From: a virus | Lineage: Duplodnaviria; Heunggongvirae; Uroviricota; Caudoviricetes | Virus record (IMG/VR): IMGVR_UViG_2600254997_000012 | Length of the DNA stretch: 11,286 nt | Strand: one strand, 5' to 3' | In this document: positions 1 to 7,488 of the stretch, piece by piece | Layout of the letters: each line of letters opens with the position of its first letter | Position numbering within the stretch: position 1 is the stretch's first letter | Translations under genes and position numbers: made by a program | Notes under the pieces: model-generated | What the model saw: only the letters and a program-made list of their open reading frames with translations | The model's database searches: none | Told to the model about the DNA's origin: nothing

Positions 1-308
1 GGGACAAGCACTTCCAGGCTAACACAGTCAGAAATCGAAACGTACTCTCAACAGTTCGCTTAGGCATGGAAGTTTTGCGGCATTCTGGCTACACAATAAC
101 AAGGGAAGACTCACTCGTGGCTGCAACCCTGCTTACTCAAAATCTATTCACACATGGTTACGTTTTGGGGAAATTATGAGGGGATCTCTCAGAGCATGAT
201 ACCGATAAAAATCGCCCATAAGATCTTATCGAAATTGTAACCGCCAGCGCAATCGCTGCTGACAGTAGCAAAAGAGGTACCTGAATCTTCTGTCTCAATA
301 TAGAAAAC

Positions 309-497
309 TCAATAATTGCCGGCACAAACAATAATTCCACAGCAAAATAAAGGCGAAATACATTTAGCTCTTGCATAGAATGTTTTCTTTTCACTAGCGA
401 AAAAGAATACAACACCAATACCCCAACCGATAAGAAATATAGCAATGACGATAACTAGCAAAAAATAAACTTCTGGCAACATCATCAACACCTGCAC
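309..497 (-). CDS. Candidate small membrane protein (62 aa) downstream of late promoter; possibly part of a longer frameshifted gene
   Basis: ORF track; strongly hydrophobic helix LLVIVIAIFLIGWGIGVVFFFA followed by charged SEKKTFYARAK. Overlaps two other minus-strand ORFs in the other two frames. No family recognised. Confidence 0.3.
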   Translation of the reverse strand: MQVLMMLPEVYFLLVIVIAIFLIGWGIGVVFFFASEKKTFYARAKCISPLFCCGIIVCAGNY

Positions 498-627
498 CTA
501 CAATCCACCATGGGAAGCCGTAGTAAAAAGAAGTACCCCATCCATAGAAATAAGCACTCCCCCATCCAAGGCATCCCATGTAGGCAATAAAAAGTGAAGA
601 ACTCCTGAGCAGTGCACCATCCTTCAT
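394..627 (-). CDS. Candidate Gly/aromatic-rich hydrophobic peptide (start placed at internal MKDGALL, preceded by GGGTGG)
   Basis: ORF track 394..669; sequence SLFIAYMGCLGWGSAYFYGWGTSFYYGFPWWIVGAGV. Frame differs from 309..497 ORF; the two could be one gene split by a 1-bp indel. Low confidence. Confidence 0.2.
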   Translation of the reverse strand: MKDGALLRSSSLFIAYMGCLGWGSAYFYGWGTSFYYGFPWWIVGAGVDDVARSLFFASYRHCYISYRLGYWCCILFR

Positions 628-835
628 AACCACCCCAATACAAGATGATAACATTGGCTTACAACTCATAACAAAAGCAATTCAATGCCGTCAAGAGGTT
701 ACAGGCTAAAAAAACTCTATTACATTGCAGTCAGCATGTTTACTACACAAATACAATTCAGAGCATAAAAACTACTCGGCGGCAGGTTATTGAGACTCAT
801 CAATGACATGTAAAAAACGCCCATTATTGGTGTCA

Positions 836-864
836 AGTTTCCCCAAAGTTATTCAAAAAGTCAA
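836..864 (-). promoter_or_regulatory. Late promoter PR' with Q-utilisation (qut) region
   Basis: Minus strand reads TTGACT-ttttgaataactttggg-GAAACT-tgacaccaataatggg, 17-bp spacer, closely matching my recollection of lambda PR' (TTGACT-tattgaataaaattggg-TAAATT-tgactcaacgatggg). About 45 bp downstream of the Q stop. Confidence 0.6.
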
Positions 865-906
865 TATTATGCCGTTAATATGTTGCCATCCGTGGCAATC
901 ATGGCG

Positions 907-1530
907 CTAACGTGTGATCGCATTCAAAATGTTGTCTGCGATTGACTCTTCCTTGTGGCATTGCACAACCAGAGCGTCATACAGCGGCTTAACAGTGCGT
1001 GACCAGGTGGGTTGGGTAAGGTTTGGGATTAGCATCGTCACAGCGCGATATGCGGCGCTTGCTGGCATTCTTGAATAACCGACGCCTTTACATCTTCCGC
1101 ACTCTTTCTCAGCAACTATCCCCCACTGCTCTGTTTTGGCTATATCAACCGCACGGCCTGTACCGTGGCAATCTCTGCATCTTGCGCCCGGCGTCGCGGC
1201 ACTACGGCAATAATCCGCATAAGCGAATGTTGCGAGCACTTGCAGTACCTTTGCCTTAGTATTTCCTTCAAGCTTTGCCACGCCACGGTATTTCCCCGAT
1301 ACCTTGTGTGCAAATTGCATCAGATAGTTGATAGCCTTTTGTTTGTCGTTCTGGCTGAGTTCGTGCTTACCGCAGAATGCAGCCATTCCGAATCCGGCTT
1401 GTGATTGCGCCATCCCCATAGCAGCCATCACATCAGTACCGGAAAGAGAGTCAGAAGCCGTGGCCCGTGGTGAGTCGCTCATCATCGGGCTTTTTGGCGA
1501 ATGAAATTTAGCTACGCTTTCGAGTCTCAT
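907..1530 (-). CDS. Q: Late-gene antiterminator Q (lambda Q type, 207 aa)
   Basis: Protein from MRLESVAKFHSPKSPMMSD... with CRDCHGTGRAVD...CGRCKGVGY zinc motif matches lambda Q as I recall it. Start taken at internal ATG 1528-1530 (RBS AGAGGGGAAG upstream) rather than track start 1563, which would overlap the upstream small ORF. Confidence 0.9.
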   Translation of the reverse strand: MRLESVAKFHSPKSPMMSDSPRATASDSLSGTDVMAAMGMAQSQAGFGMAAFCGKHELSQNDKQKAINYLMQFAHKVSGKYRGVAKLEGNTKAKVLQVLATFAYADYCRSAATPGARCRDCHGTGRAVDIAKTEQWGIVAEKECGRCKGVGYSRMPASAAYRAVTMLIPNLTQPTWSRTVKPLYDALVVQCHKEESIADNILNAITR

Positions 1531-4353: not shown

Positions 4354-4375
4354 TGTTACCTCGACTTAATTCTGC

Positions 4376-4702
4376 TCATTGATACCCCCTCTCACTTAAT
4401 CGCCTCCACACTTCGTTAAACTCTTCTCGGGTTGCGCCGGATTTTCTTTCTTCAAACATCATGCATTCGCTGATGTCTCCCCATGACTTTGGTCGCTTTT
4501 CAGCAAACAGATCATCCCATTCGAATACCCAACGGCCTGATTTTCGGTAGTGGTAAATAGTCAGCCATGTTGTGCTGTTCGCCGGATACCCATAGAGAAC
4601 TTCGACTTTTTGATCACGGTCTTTATGCTTCTTCAGCAGGATAAAGCCAGCAACCAGCGAAGCTCCGGCAAGAATGATGATTGGTATTTGCCAGTCAGCC
4701 AC
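4376..4702 (-). CDS. Hypothetical membrane-anchored protein (108 aa, one N-terminal TM helix), GTG start
   Basis: ORF track; N-terminal IPIIILAGASLVAGFILL then soluble domain rich in W and charged residues. RBS GGGGGAGAG 7 nt upstream of GTG 4700-4702. Sits directly after the tR2-like terminator. No family recognised. Confidence 0.5.
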   Translation of the reverse strand: MADWQIPIIILAGASLVAGFILLKKHKDRDQKVEVLYGYPANSTTWLTIYHYRKSGRWVFEWDDLFAEKRPKSWGDISECMMFEERKSGATREEFNEVWRRLSERGYQ

Positions 4703-4717
4703 GATTTACTCTCCCCC

Positions 4718-4749
4718 AAATAAAAAGGCCTGCGATTACCAGCAGGCCT
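4718..4749 (-). terminator. Intrinsic terminator, tR2-like (after ren, start of nin region)
   Basis: Minus strand AGGCCTGC-tggtaatc-GCAGGCCT hairpin (8-bp GC-rich stem) followed by TTTTTATTT. Confidence 0.55.
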
Positions 4750-4774
4750 GTTATTAGCTCAGTGATGTAGATGG

Positions 4775-5065
4775 TCATCTTTTAACTCCATATACCGCCA
4801 ATACCCGTTTCATCGCGGCACTCTGGCGACACTCCTTAAAAATTAGGTTCGTGCTCATCTTTCCTTCCCGTTCTTCCTTGGTAGCAAACCGGTAATACAC
4901 CGTTCGCCAGACCTTACCTTCGATAACCAGAAGACCTGCCCGTGCCATTTTAGCCGCGGCCTGATTTATGCTGGTTACTGTTGCGCCTGTTAGCGCGGCA
5001 ACGTCCGGCGCACAGAAGCTATTATGCGTCCCCAGGTAATGAATAATTGCCTCTTTGCCCGTCAT
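4775..5065 (-). CDS. ren: Ren protein (lambda ren)
   Basis: 96 aa, MTGKEAIIHYLGTHNSFCAPDVAALTGATVTSINQAAAKMARAG... nearly identical to lambda Ren as I recall it. Confidence 0.9.
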   Translation of the reverse strand: MTGKEAIIHYLGTHNSFCAPDVAALTGATVTSINQAAAKMARAGLLVIEGKVWRTVYYRFATKEEREGKMSTNLIFKECRQSAAMKRVLAVYGVKR

Positions 5066-5763
5066 ACACTTGCTCCTTTCAGTCCGAACTTAGCTTTGAG
5101 TTCTGCGATCTTCGCCAGAGCCTGTGCACGATTTAGAGGTCTACCGCCCATGACAGGAAGTTGTTTTACTGGTTCAGGGATCGACTCACCACGGTTAATT
5201 CTCGCAGTCATATGGACAAGCTCATCTGCGGCCTTACGGCGTAATTCCGCATCAGTAAGCGCATTGGCCCGCATGTTCTGATACAGGTTGGTAACCAGCC
5301 AGTAGTGCGCGTTTGATTTCCACGGATAAGACTCCGCATCCGGATACAGGCCTCGCTTCCGGCAATACTCGTAAACCATATCAACCAGCTCGCTGACGTT
5401 TGGCAGTCCGGCGATAACGGATGCTTCTTCCCGGCACCATGCAACAAACTGCCCGGGTGATGGCAGAAATGGTCGATTCTGCCGACGGGCTACGCGCATT
5501 CCTGCGTTAACCTGTTCCATTGTGGTGATCCCGTTTTCCCGGAAAGCCAGAACCCACTGGCGGCGGATTTCGTTCAGTTCGTTCTGGTCACGGTTAGCCA
5601 GGCTCGCCGGGAAAGTTGCCAGTAACTGGCTGAACACACCGTTGATGATCTGCGCTACCTGTTGTACCTGCGGCTTTTCGTCGTACTGTTCCGGCATGTT
5701 GTTGGCGATCCGACGCATCTGCTCACGGTCAAAGTTAACCATCTGTGCGGCGATGTTTTTCAT
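5062..5763 (-). CDS. P: Replication protein P (DnaB helicase loader)
   Basis: 233 aa, same length as lambda P and recognisably the same sequence; overlaps O stop and ren start. Confidence 0.95.
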   Translation of the reverse strand: MKNIAAQMVNFDREQMRRIANNMPEQYDEKPQVQQVAQIINGVFSQLLATFPASLANRDQNELNEIRRQWVLAFRENGITTMEQVNAGMRVARRQNRPFLPSPGQFVAWCREEASVIAGLPNVSELVDMVYEYCRKRGLYPDAESYPWKSNAHYWLVTNLYQNMRANALTDAELRRKAADELVHMTARINRGESIPEPVKQLPVMGGRPLNRAQALAKIAELKAKFGLKGASV

Positions 5764-6659
5764 AAATCCACCCCGTAAATCCAGTCAGTGTTTGTCAGGT
5801 CGAGTTTTGGTTTGCTGGCTGTCACGCCTGCCTGTTGCTTGTTACGGTTGATTTCGAGCTGGGTCCACTTGTCGCGGAGTTTGGCCGGACTCAGCACGTT
5901 ACCGGACCAGAAGTTGTCCTGGCAGGCCCAGCGGAAAAGCACACACATATCGCGGTGGTTACGTCCGTCACGTTCACGCATCAGGCGGATATCGTTAGCC
6001 CACCCAGCAAAATTCGGTTTTCTGGCTGATGGCGCGATGGTCTTCACCATGTCAAACATCCACTCTGCGGCGGTCAGGTCTTCTGCTGTTCCCCACTTGC
6101 TGCCGCTCTGAATTGCAGCATCCGGTTTAACCACAGAAAGATCGTTTTTCTGGCTGGTCAGAGGATTCGCCAGAATTCTCGGACGAATAATCTTTTCTTT
6201 TTCTTTTGTAATAGTGTCTTTTGTGTCCCCCTGTTTTGAGGGATAGCAATCCCCCAATTTGAGGGATGTTTTATCCCTCGTTTTAGGGGATTTTCCCTCG
6301 TTTTGAGGGATACACCATTCTGAGATGTTTTTATTTGGTCCAAACATGCCGCCTTGCTGCTTGATAATATTCATTCTGACGAGTTCTAACTTGGCTTCAT
6401 TGCACCGTTTGACGGGTAACTTTGTAATCTCGCTAAGTTGAGAATCGGTGATTCTGTCCATTGGTTTATTCCACCCATAGGTTTTACGCAGAATGGCAAG
6501 CAGCACTTTAAACTGTCGCTTGGTCAGATCTGCGCCTGAATAAGCCTCAAGCAGCATATTTGATAGTCTGGCGTAACCATCATCGAGATCTGCCACATTA
6601 CGCTCCTGTCCGGCAAAGTTACCTCTGCCGAAGTTGAGTATTTTTGCTGTATTTGTCAT
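5760..6659 (-). CDS. O: Replication initiator protein O
   Basis: 299 aa, same length as lambda O; contains the iteron array and AT-rich origin inside the coding sequence. Confidence 0.95.
   Translation of the reverse strand: MTNTAKILNFGRGNFAGQERNVADLDDGYARLSNMLLEAYSGADLTKRQFKVLLAILRKTYGWNKPMDRITDSQLSEITKLPVKRCNEAKLELVRMNIIKQQGGMFGPNKNISEWCIPQNEGKSPKTRDKTSLKLGDCYPSKQGDTKDTITKEKEKIIRPRILANPLTSQKNDLSVVKPDAAIQSGSKWGTAEDLTAAEWMFDMVKTIAPSARKPNFAGWANDIRLMRERDGRNHRDMCVLFRWACQDNFWSGNVLSPAKLRDKWTQLEINRNKQQAGVTASKPKLDLTNTDWIYGVDL
6186..6312. repeat. Replication origin (ori-lambda type): four iterons (about 6224-6312) plus adjacent AT-rich unwinding region (about 6186-6223)
   Basis: Four ~18-bp inverted-symmetry repeats: TCCCCCTGTTTTGAGGGA, ATCCCCCAATTTGAGGGAT, ATCCCTCGTTTTAGGGGA, TCCCTCGTTTTGAGGGA, then tcttttctttttcttttgtaatagtgtcttttgtg. 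Confidence 0.85.
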
Positions 6660-6691
6660 AATGACTCCTGTTGATAGATCCAGTAATGACC

Positions 6692-6988
6692 TCAGAACTC
6701 CATCTGGATTTGTTCAGAACGCTCGGTTGCCGCCGGGCGTTTTTTCTTTGTGATTCCATCAAGCGCATACTTAAAAGCCCTGCTAATTGGACTGATGTCT
6801 GATGCCATTCCGAAAGCACACAAGACCGAAGCAATAAACCGCCAGTCCGTTCTGCTTATCTTCGATTCATGACAGCCAATCATCTTTGCCAGACCACGCT
6901 GGGTAAGCGTTGACAGGTTGATGAGTAAATCTGTTTCTGCGCGATCAACGTCACGCTGTGATAGTTTGCTGTAACTTGTTTGTTCCAT
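6692..6988 (-). CDS. cII: Transcriptional activator CII (hybrid: non-lambda N-terminal region, lambda-like C-terminus)
   Basis: 98 aa; C-terminal KKRPAATERSEQIQMEF matches lambda CII; position immediately upstream of O. Confidence 0.8.
   Translation of the reverse strand: MEQTSYSKLSQRDVDRAETDLLINLSTLTQRGLAKMIGCHESKISRTDWRFIASVLCAFGMASDISPISRAFKYALDGITKKKRPAATERSEQIQMEF
6966..6979 (+). promoter_or_regulatory. Possible CII-binding direct repeat of a PRE-like promoter (TTGC-N6-TTGT)
   Basis: TTGCtgtaacTTGT on plus strand inside the first codons of cII, where lambda has TTGC-N6-TTGC overlapping the PRE -35. Positional analogy only. Confidence 0.3.
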
Positions 6989-7104: not shown

Positions 7105-7161
7105 TTGTGAACCGCCCCGGGAATCCTGGAGACTAAACTCCCTGAGAAAGAGGTAAACAGG

Positions 7162-7488
7162 ATGACTAAAAATACTCGTTTTTCCCCCGAAGTCCGTCAG
7201 AGGGCGATTCGTATGGTTCTGGAAAGTCAGGGCGAATATGACTCACAGTGGGCGGCAATTTGTTCCATTGCCCCAAAGATTGGCTGTACACCGGAGACTC
7301 TGCGTGTCTGGGTACGCCAGCATGAGCGGGATACCGGAGGCGGTGATGGCGGGCTCACCACCGCTGAACGTCAGCGTCTGAAAGAGTTGGAACGTGAAAA
7401 TCGTGAACTGCGCCGCAGTAACGATATCCTTCGCCAGGCTTCCGCTTATTTTGCGAAGGCGGAGTTCGACCGCCTCTGGAAAAAGTGA
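7162..7488 (+). CDS. IS3-family transposase OrfA (HTH DNA-binding subunit)
   Basis: 108 aa [41 protein letters not shown]...; ends at TGG AAA AAG TGA, a candidate -1 slippage site giving an OrfAB fusion. Confidence 0.9.

What the first reader, a model, noticed from the sequence alone, without database searches (positions are those of the whole stretch)
158..669. AT-rich segment just downstream of PR' is open in all three minus-strand frames and encodes hydrophobic, Gly/aromatic-rich peptides
Lambda homology ends about 25 nt after the PR' start. In lambdoid phages the Q-to-lysis interval is a known cargo slot (Stx toxins, tRNAs). Three overlapping ORFs (394..669, 309..497, 158..445) sit in three different frames despite high AT content. 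Read consecutively (669 to about 485 in one frame, then about 497 to 309 in the next) they would give a ~106-aa protein with two or three hydrophobic segments, the size of a holin or small membrane effector. Each frame change is a single-base shift.
Basis: inference. Interest (0 to 1): 0.55.

Follow-up and report, generated by a model that had tools for sequence, protein, structure and literature searches.

The report
Broken copy of a phage membrane-protein gene
The three overlapping reading frames are one well-known but uncharacterised 238-residue prophage membrane-protein gene, cut short by an IS10 insertion and split by two extra bases that are probably assembly errors; it is ordinary.

Summary
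In detail: three minus-strand ORFs (394..669, 309..497, 158..445) overlap in an AT-rich stretch downstream of a lambda-like PR', more than chance allows (51 of 20,000 shuffles). They are not three peptides, a 106-aa protein or a holin. They are the first 144 codons of one 238-aa gene (ATG at 627, minus strand). NCBI calls the family 'STM1630 family protein'; it is Pfam PF27470 and PHROG 1521.

The same allele is intact in 682 of 5,426 complete E. coli genomes and is 100% identical in phage 434. Deleting plus-strand bases 457 and 396 restores residues 1-144 exactly. At 192/193 the gene runs into an IS10-like end (window 1..192), where the contig stops.

The window is a whole contig of a draft assembly. 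Compared with E2348/69, nearly all its protein differences come from 1-nt indels, and six of the eight indels lie in homopolymers. The two extra bases sit after T5/T6 runs, so they are probably sequencing or assembly errors. The IS10 insertion is probably real, because one complete genome has the same junction.

The intact protein is modelled with five long helices and a small C-terminal beta domain, with no structural or functional match. A separate class II holin lies further downstream in relatives. Low interest.

The parts
829..864 (-). Lambda-like late promoter PR': -35 TTGACT at 864..859, -10-like GAAACT at 841..836, inferred start near 829. Lambda homology ends near 820.
   Evidence: Alignment with lambda 44459-44719 and the sequence read. 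The start site is inferred from lambda, not measured.
645..674 (-). Sigma-70 promoter-like site (TTGTTA, 18 nt, TG-TATCAT) just upstream of the true ATG; possibly the gene's own promoter.
   Evidence: Consensus scan. It found 1 site where shuffles give 2.4, so this is a weak lead only.
458..627 (-). Codons 1-56 plus the first two bases of codon 57 of the STM1630-family (PF27470) membrane-protein gene, frame -1. ATG at 627..625; GGGGTGG ribosome-binding-like motif at 636..630.
   Evidence: tblastn of the intact protein: residues 1-57 at 627..457, 100% identical. The family alignment starts at this Met.
457..457 (-). Extra base 1: T on the gene strand, A on the plus strand. GCAGT becomes GCTAGT after a T6 run, at Ala57.
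   Evidence: Pairwise comparison with E2348/69, EC12 and O111:H11 88.0502.
397..456 (-). Codons 58-76 and part of codon 77 of the same gene, now in frame -2.
   Evidence: tblastn frame -2 segment at 464..384. The repaired translation is identical to the intact protein.
396..396 (-). Extra base 2: T on the gene strand. GCAGT becomes GCTAGT after a T5 run, at Ala77.
193..395 (-). Rest of codon 77, codons 78-144 and the first base of codon 145, now in frame -3. The gene ends at the IS junction.
   Evidence: tblastn frame -3 segment. After removing 457 and 396, the prefix identical to the intact protein is 144 residues long.
1..192 (-). End of an IS10-like (ISVsa5 family, IS4-like) element, with terminal CTGAGAGATCCCC at 192..180 on the minus strand. 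The contig ends inside it. ORF 158..445 reads 11 codons into it before a stop.
   Evidence: Matches to annotated ISVsa5-family transposase elements. The junction is identical in O111:H11 88.0502, which shows the 9-bp target duplication TATCATGCT.

Best explanation
Window 193..627 (minus strand) is the 5' 60% of one conserved lambdoid-prophage gene. The gene encodes a 238-aa inner-membrane protein: NCBI 'STM1630 family protein', Pfam PF27470, PHROG 1521, and 'putative membrane protein' CPT_434_68 in phage 434. When intact it is the first gene after the Q antiterminator and PR'. It should therefore be transcribed with the late operon, and perhaps also from its own promoter. The model shows five long hydrophobic helices and a C-terminal beta domain of about 55 residues. 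The N-terminal motif GWGSAYFYGWG..FPWW is strongly conserved. In this window the gene cannot make that protein. An IS10-like element is inserted in codon 145, and the contig stops inside that repeat. The IS10 insertion is probably real. The two extra bases are most probably sequencing or assembly errors of this draft contig. The biochemical function of the family is unknown. My best guess, which is inference, is a cargo ('moron') envelope protein that acts in the lysogen or during host association, rather than a lysis protein.
For: Identity: removing bases 457 and 396 gives residues 1-144 100% identical to the intact protein. The intact allele matches PHROG 1521 at E = 1.9e-154. The window's own 86-aa product carries a precomputed PF27470 hit.

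Conserved frame: 108 homologues were found; the full-length ones are 236-240 aa. The same allele is full length at 99.4% identity or more in 682 of 5,426 complete E. coli genomes. It is 100% identical in phage 434.

Position: the gene sits about 250-280 nt after Q in E. coli prophages with a lambda-type Q, about 185 nt after the Q82-like gene in phage 434, and 280 nt after a PF06530 Q in Yersinia.

IS10: annotated ISVsa5-family element with the same junction, and a 9-bp target duplication, in O111:H11 88.0502.

Error-like pattern: the window is the whole 11,286-bp contig ALNX01000111.1 of a draft assembly, and the frameshifted product is on record only there. Against E2348/69 there are 8 one-base indels and 4 substitutions. 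Six indels are homopolymer-length changes. Among the shared genes compared, every protein is 100% identical except those hit by an indel (this gene, O, the cI-like repressor, BRO, a 156-aa ORF) and one with a single substitution. The two extra T's are the only GC(T)AG sites in the window preceded by a T run of 5 or more.

Architecture: AlphaFold2 gives pLDDT 72.8 and pTM 0.68, with helices 3-36, 47-81, 84-111, 116-139 and 155-181, and strands across 184-235.

Not lysis-specific: relatives are stand-alone chromosomal genes in Salmonella, Aggregatibacter and Haemophilus ducreyi. Named relatives also occur in Neisseria and other Pasteurellaceae.
Against: No reads are available, so the two extra bases cannot be proved to be errors. 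They are not homopolymer-length changes like the other six indels. One similar site (T5-CGCA, not followed by G) is unaffected. The IS10 end differs at about 6 of 192 positions from copies in complete genomes, so the contig end could be a collapsed or chimeric repeat. Function is not shown anywhere: there was no hit in NCBIfam, the local Pfam copy or PADLOC, no fold match, and a Salmonella STM1630 deletion had no macrophage replication phenotype (PMC6785131). No tR'-like terminator was found between PR' and the gene, so the transcription scheme is inferred from position only.
Confidence: 0.88

Rival explanations
1. The two one-base insertions are real mutations: the gene, already killed by IS10, is decaying as a pseudogene in this strain.
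For: The gene is disrupted by IS10 anyway. Frameshifted and IS-fused fragments of this family are common in databases: P0080, P0086, P0097, P0104, P0105, P0108 and fragment families phrog_14371, phrog_17164 and phrog_3985. The prophage also carries an IS629-like insertion, so it is probably defective.
Against: Two identical T insertions in the same GC^AGT context, 61 nt apart, in a prophage with only 4 substitutions over 9.8 kb. Neither extra base appears in the 30 complete-genome copies shown (717 of 717 nt aligned, 99.4% or more), which include the weakest of the 682. The exact product is found on this one contig only. The rest of the contig shows a homopolymer-indel pattern, including an out-of-frame stretch inside O bounded by two compensating indels and a split repressor.
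Confidence: 0.25
2. The region encodes a protein of about 106 aa with two or three hydrophobic segments (a holin or small membrane effector), made by joining the first two ORFs.
For: The region is hydrophobic and sits in the Q-to-lysis slot.
Against: Homologues have one continuous frame of 236-240 aa. The second ORF's frame matches the real protein for only about 20 codons. Related prophages have their own class II holin, lysozyme and Rz genes downstream. There was no PHROG lysis-category hit.
Confidence: 0.02
3. The frame changes are programmed ribosomal frameshifts used to express the protein.
For: Both shifts follow U-rich runs (UUUUUUGCU, UUUUUCGCU).
Against: The complete-genome copies examined and all full-length family members encode the protein in one frame without the extra bases. 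Two successive +1 events would be needed. The gene is truncated by IS10 regardless.
Confidence: 0.01
4. The intact protein is a type IV pilus accessory protein, as the Pfam short name 'TfpB' might suggest, related to TfpY/FimB-like pilin accessory proteins.
For: The precomputed Pfam label PF27470 reads 'TfpB'. Distant relatives occur in Neisseria and Pasteurellaceae. From memory only, tfpB is an ORF in the Moraxella pilin inversion region.
Against: TfpY-like proteins are described with three transmembrane helices and a larger periplasmic domain (PMC11841053), whereas this model has five helices and a beta domain of about 55 residues. No pilin gene is next to the relatives examined. No Moraxella member was recovered. 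The literature search for tfpB with Moraxella found nothing.
Confidence: 0.07

Closest known systems
Phage 434 gene CPT_434_68 ('putative membrane protein', OL657226) and E. coli prophage proteins WP_001299184.1 / WP_001302581.1 ('STM1630 family protein' / hypothetical protein)
   Same: 100% identical over residues 1-144 once the two extra bases are removed. Same position directly after the late antiterminator gene. In relatives the same downstream neighbour (DUF3927/TciB-like) follows, and a class II holin-lysozyme cassette lies further on, directly or after other cargo genes.
   Different: The window copy has two extra bases and is cut at codon 145 by IS10, so the C-terminal 94 residues are missing. 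Phage 434 uses a Q82-like antiterminator; the window uses a lambda-type Q.
Salmonella Typhimurium STM1630 (uncharacterised inner-membrane protein next to sseJ)
   Same: Same family: 46% identity over the full 238 aa, with the same N-terminal GWGSAYFYGWG..FPWW motif and C-terminal YKPQ.KKEYEMI..WYY.LAR motif.
   Different: It is chromosomal, not in a prophage late region, and has its own promoter. It is reported as macrophage-induced and co-regulated with SPI-2, with no replication defect on deletion (PMC6785131, PMC2639726). No function is known that could be transferred.
Cargo ('moron') genes of the lambdoid Q-to-lysis interval, such as stx, and nanS-p esterases
   Same: Same slot, lower GC than the flanks, and exchanged as a module between phages with different Q types.
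   Different: It is not a toxin or an esterase. It is a polytopic membrane protein with no known activity.
Class II holins (S21/S-like) of lambdoid phages
   Same: A small-to-medium hydrophobic protein encoded downstream of Q.
   Different: 238 aa against about 70 aa; five helices plus a beta domain against two transmembrane segments; not adjacent to the endolysin gene. A real class II holin gene is present separately in relatives.

Membership tests
PF27470 / 'STM1630 family protein' / PHROG 1521 | Significant full-length sequence match to family members | tested here: met
   The repaired reading gives residues 1-144 100% identical to the intact allele. The intact allele matches phrog_1521 at E = 1.9e-154. 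The window's 86-aa product has a precomputed PF27470 hit.
PF27470 / 'STM1630 family protein' / PHROG 1521 | Conserved N-terminal Gly/aromatic motif (GWGSAYFYGWG.S.YYGFPWW) followed by ARSL | tested here: met
   The motif is present at codons 21-41, and ARSL at 51-54, in frame -1 of the window.
PF27470 / 'STM1630 family protein' / PHROG 1521 | One uninterrupted ORF of about 236-240 aa | tested here: not met
   Two one-base insertions (457, 396) and an IS10 junction at 192/193. The window holds a disrupted copy, not a functional member.
PF27470 / 'STM1630 family protein' / PHROG 1521 | Conserved C-terminal segment (YFW.FS..G.YKPQFKKEY...WYYVLARYD..L.LS) and beta domain | tested here: not met
   This part (codons 145-238) lies beyond the IS10 junction and is absent from the window.
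Holin (class I/II) of lambdoid phages | Small protein (about 70-110 aa) with 2-3 transmembrane segments, encoded immediately upstream of the endolysin gene | tested here: not met
   238 aa and five helices. In relatives the holin-lysozyme pair starts about 1.2-2.8 kb downstream of the gene's stop codon, separated by one to four other annotated genes.
IS10 / ISVsa5 (IS4 family) insertion | Terminal inverted repeat at the junction and a 9-bp target duplication | tested here: inconclusive
   The terminal sequence CTGAGAGATCCCC abuts the gene at 192/193, and window 1..192 is 97-98% identical to annotated ISVsa5 elements. The second junction is outside the contig. The duplication TATCATGCT is seen only in the relative O111:H11 88.0502.
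Programmed +1 frameshift gene | The frameshift site is conserved in homologues, and the product requires the shift | tested here: not met
   Homologues and the complete-genome copies examined have a single continuous frame.
TfpY/FimB-like type IV pilin accessory proteins | Three N-terminal transmembrane helices, a periplasmic globular C-terminal domain, and a gene next to a pilin gene | tested here: not met
   The model has five helices and a short beta domain. The neighbours examined are Q genes, sseJ, eltAB or housekeeping genes, not pilins. The family description is taken from PMC11841053. No direct sequence comparison with TfpY was possible.

The most novel reading that the evidence does not exclude
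The PF27470 family could have a function of a kind not yet described. It is the first late gene after Q in many EHEC/EPEC prophages and in phage 434, and it is also the divergent neighbour of the LT toxin operon on ETEC contigs that look plasmid-derived and of the effector gene sseJ in Salmonella. It has no structural analogue in the PDB or BFVD. A role at the envelope linked to toxin or effector cargo, or a new type of superinfection exclusion, would fit. This window's copy is broken and could not be used to study it.
Probability: 0.15. Interest if true: 0.5.

Novelty: already known. Interest (0 to 1): 0.12.

Why it matters
It matters little for biology. The finding resolves into a disrupted copy of a gene already annotated in hundreds of genomes. 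The practical lesson concerns data quality: this draft contig carries one-base indels that split several genes, including the prophage repressor and O, so any frameshifted gene in it should be checked against relatives before being interpreted. The family itself is a reasonable target for someone studying lambdoid cargo genes. It is found in 682 of 5,426 complete E. coli genomes (about 13%), including O157:H7 EDL933, and in phage 434; on ETEC contigs it sits next to the LT genes. It has no known function or fold.

Tried and rejected
NCBIfam, the local Pfam-A copy and PADLOC gave no hit for the intact protein. The name 'STM1630 family protein' comes only from RefSeq annotation, and PF27470 'TfpB' only from precomputed labels.

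Rfam, tRNA and terminator scans of 1..1100 found nothing. The leader 628..835 folds no better than shuffles, z = -0.28.

The first AlphaFold2 run with 31 close homologues was poor (pLDDT 57). Adding Pasteurellaceae relatives raised it to 72.8.

Literature searches for TfpB returned chemistry, anaesthesia and the unrelated Acinetobacter PilB-like TfpB. tfpB with Moraxella found nothing. Phage 434 with DUF3927 returned no paper on this gene.

I tested whether the GCAGT to GCTAGT change is a simple motif-wide error. It is not: 21 other GCAGT sites are unchanged. It does track an upstream T run of 5 or more.

I looked for a conserved DUF3927 partner outside E. coli prophages. None was found in the Salmonella or ETEC contexts.

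The genome-contig scan returned only 5 loci and added little.

Full report
**What is in the sequence**

The window is a lambdoid prophage read backwards, with its genes on the minus strand. A lambda-type Q antiterminator occupies 907..1530/1563. The three ORFs named in the finding exist: 394..669 (91 aa), 309..497 (62 aa) and 158..445 (95 aa), all minus strand and in three different frames. GC falls to 35-44% across about 200..700, against about 50% in the flanks. In 20,000 shuffles of 158..669, all three frames were open for at least 62 codons only 51 times, so the pattern is not chance.

An alignment with lambda shows about 95% identity through the end of Q and PR'. The -35 TTGACT is at 864..859, the -10-like element at 841..836, and the inferred start is near 829. 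Similarity is lost near 820.

**What it is**

A megablast of 1..1000 against complete E. coli genomes hit 2,163 genomes. In close relatives a single annotated gene lies under the region, named 'STM1630 family protein' or 'hypothetical protein'. In strain EC12 it is a 717-nt, 238-aa gene that starts 280 nt after Q.

A three-way alignment and a base-by-base comparison with the nearest complete relative, the E2348/69 prophage at 99.9% identity, show three differences in the window:
- One extra base at plus-strand 457.
- One extra base at plus-strand 396.
- Complete loss of homology at 192/193, where an IS10-like end begins (ISVsa5 family, IS4-like).

Deleting 457 and 396 and translating from the ATG at 627 gives 144 residues identical to the intact protein. 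The reading then runs into the IS. tblastn places residues 1-57 in frame -1, about 55-81 in frame -2 and about 69-149 in frame -3. In codon terms:
- The first extra T is the third base of codon 57 (Ala).
- The second lies inside codon 77 (Ala).
- The IS is inserted after the first base of codon 145 (Phe).

ORF 158..445 owes its last 11 codons to IS10 sequence.

**The family**

The intact protein matches PHROG 1521 (unknown function) at E = 1.9e-154. Three further PHROGs correspond to N- or C-terminal fragments. The local Pfam copy, NCBIfam and PADLOC gave nothing. Precomputed labels place all relatives, and the window's own 86-aa product, in Pfam PF27470, short name 'TfpB'.

The first protein search found 108 relatives. 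The full-length ones are 236-240 aa and come from Escherichia, Shigella, Citrobacter, Cronobacter, Klebsiella, Enterobacter, Salmonella and Yersinia. A profile search of 1.84 billion cluster representatives found only 72 clusters. The named distant ones come from Neisseria and Pasteurellaceae, plus two further Enterobacterales (Klebsiella electrica, Mangrovibacter).

The alignment is conserved mainly in two places:
- The N-terminal 70 residues: ..SS...AY.G.LGWGSAYFYGWG.S.YYGFPWW..G..D..ARSL.
- Residues around 165-210: YFW.FS..G.YKPQFKKEY...WYYVLARYD..L.LS.

The same allele, at 99.4% identity or more and full length, occurs in 682 of 5,426 complete E. coli genomes, including O157:H7 EDL933. It is 100% identical in the classical phage 434, where it is annotated 'putative membrane protein' (CPT_434_68).

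**Context**

In E. coli prophages with a lambda-type Q, the gene starts about 250-280 nt after Q. It is followed by a DUF3927/TciB-like ORF. Other cargo can come next, such as a SASA-family esterase. A class II holin, a lysozyme and Rz then follow.

In phage 434 the upstream antiterminator is Q82-like. In Yersinia it is a PF06530-type Q with a 280-nt gap. The gene therefore moves as a module between phages with different late regulators.

Outside phages it is found in three settings:
- As the divergent neighbour of sseJ in Salmonella.
- As the divergent neighbour of the heat-labile toxin operon eltAB on ETEC contigs that also carry STb and many IS elements. These look plasmid-derived, but I did not test that.
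- As a stand-alone chromosomal gene in Aggregatibacter and Haemophilus ducreyi.

**Structure and function**

Hydropathy gives four strong hydrophobic segments, at about 53-78, 88-110, 116-133 and 156-176. The better AlphaFold2 model (pLDDT 72.8, pTM 0.68) has five long helices: 3-36, 47-81, 84-111, 116-139 and 155-181. It also has a five-stranded C-terminal beta domain at 184-235.

Loop charges suggest an N-in, C-out topology, which is inference. No structural analogue was found:
- BFVD gave nothing at E <= 0.001.
- A PDB sequence-profile search gave nothing significant.

The literature on the Salmonella member says only that it is co-regulated with SPI-2 and was chosen for study from intramacrophage RNA-seq data. 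Its promoter is inactivated in ST313, and its deletion does not change macrophage replication (PMC2639726, PMC6785131). Motility screens were inconclusive (PMC4534456).

TfpY/FimB-like pilin accessory proteins have a different described architecture, with three transmembrane helices and a larger periplasmic domain (PMC11841053). None of the neighbourhoods I examined contains a pilin gene. I therefore do not file this protein there, and I could not test where the Pfam short name comes from.

My working view is inference only. The gene is a cargo envelope protein, useful to the lysogen or in host association, and transcribed with the late operon because of where it sits. A weak promoter-like site at 674..645 leaves room for autonomous expression. 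It is not the holin.

**Are the frameshifts real?**

The window is the entire contig ALNX01000111.1 (11,286 bp) of draft assembly GCA_000754045.1. The frameshifted 86-aa product is on record on that contig only.

Against E2348/69 the contig shows 4 substitutions and 8 one-base indels. Six of the indels are homopolymer-length changes, at 6145, 6198, 8683, 9008, 10336 and 11246. At the protein level, every shared gene compared is 100% identical except the following:
- The gene studied here.
- O, which has an out-of-frame stretch between two compensating indels.
- The cI-like repressor, which is split.
- BRO.
- A 156-aa ORF.
- One protein with a single substitution.

That pattern is typical of sequencing or assembly error, not of divergence.

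The two extra T's are not homopolymer changes, but both turn GCAGT into GCTAGT at an F-A-V codon triplet. They are also the only GC(T)AG sites in the window with a T run of 5 or more just upstream. The other 21 GCAGT sites are untouched, and so is one T5-CGCA site that is not followed by G.

I read this as a context-dependent error, at about 0.7, but only the reads can settle it. The IS10 junction is more credible as biology. The complete genome of O111:H11 88.0502 has the same junction with a 9-bp duplication, TATCATGCT. However, the window's IS end differs at a few positions from any complete-genome copy, and a contig that ends in a repeat always deserves caution.

**Verdict**

It is wrong on size, on the stitching and on the holin idea, and it missed the IS. 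The feature is a disrupted copy of a known, widespread, uncharacterised gene in an error-prone draft contig. Novelty: already known. Interest: low.

Noticed in passing
window 7109..8417: A 1,309-bp IS3-family element (IS629-like, with orfA 7162..7488 and orfB 7485..8375) is inserted between the cro-like gene and cII, relative to the E2348/69 prophage. The prophage is probably defective.
   Followed up: partly
window 6145, 6198, 8683, 9008, 10336, 11246: Six homopolymer-length one-base indels relative to E2348/69. Two compensating ones put about 17 codons of replication gene O out of frame. 9008 splits the cI/LexA-like repressor, 10336 alters the BRO C-terminus, 11246 shifts a 156-aa ORF, and 8683 lies in the cro-cI operator region. 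This looks like sequencing error.
   Followed up: partly
window 1..192: The IS10-like end differs at about 6 of 192 positions from ISVsa5/IS10 copies in complete E. coli genomes (best 97-98%). Even so, it sits at exactly the same insertion point as the IS in O111:H11 strain 88.0502, whose prophage is otherwise a different mosaic upstream of Q. Shared ancestry of this segment, a hot spot, or a collapsed repeat consensus are all possible.
   Followed up: partly
L006-L009 (ETEC contigs), about 4358..6714: A 59%-identical member of the same family is the divergent neighbour, about 0.9 kb away, of the heat-labile enterotoxin operon eltAB on IS-rich contigs that also carry STb. In Salmonella (L005) the family member is the divergent neighbour of sseJ. 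The family seems to travel with toxin or effector cargo.
   Followed up: no
L003 2473..2631, L001 5176..5334, L023 3303..3461 (outside the window): In E. coli prophages and phage 434 the gene is always followed by a 52-aa DUF3927 ORF. PHROG 1470 describes this as 'TciB-like inhibition of cell division or resistance to colicin'. This partner is absent in the Salmonella and ETEC contexts.
   Followed up: partly
L023 (phage 434) 1600..3217; L010-L012 (Yersinia): The same membrane-protein gene follows three different antiterminator types: lambda Q, Q82-like, and PF06530 Q. The gap is about 250-280 nt after the lambda-type and Yersinia Q genes and about 185 nt in phage 434, which indicates modular exchange at the Q/PR' boundary.
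   Followed up: partly
window 10556 and 10570: Two substitutions 14 nt apart (T to G and G to T relative to E2348/69) in the stretch upstream of a small hypothetical ORF. Together with 4410 and one other, these are the only substitutions in the window.
   Followed up: no
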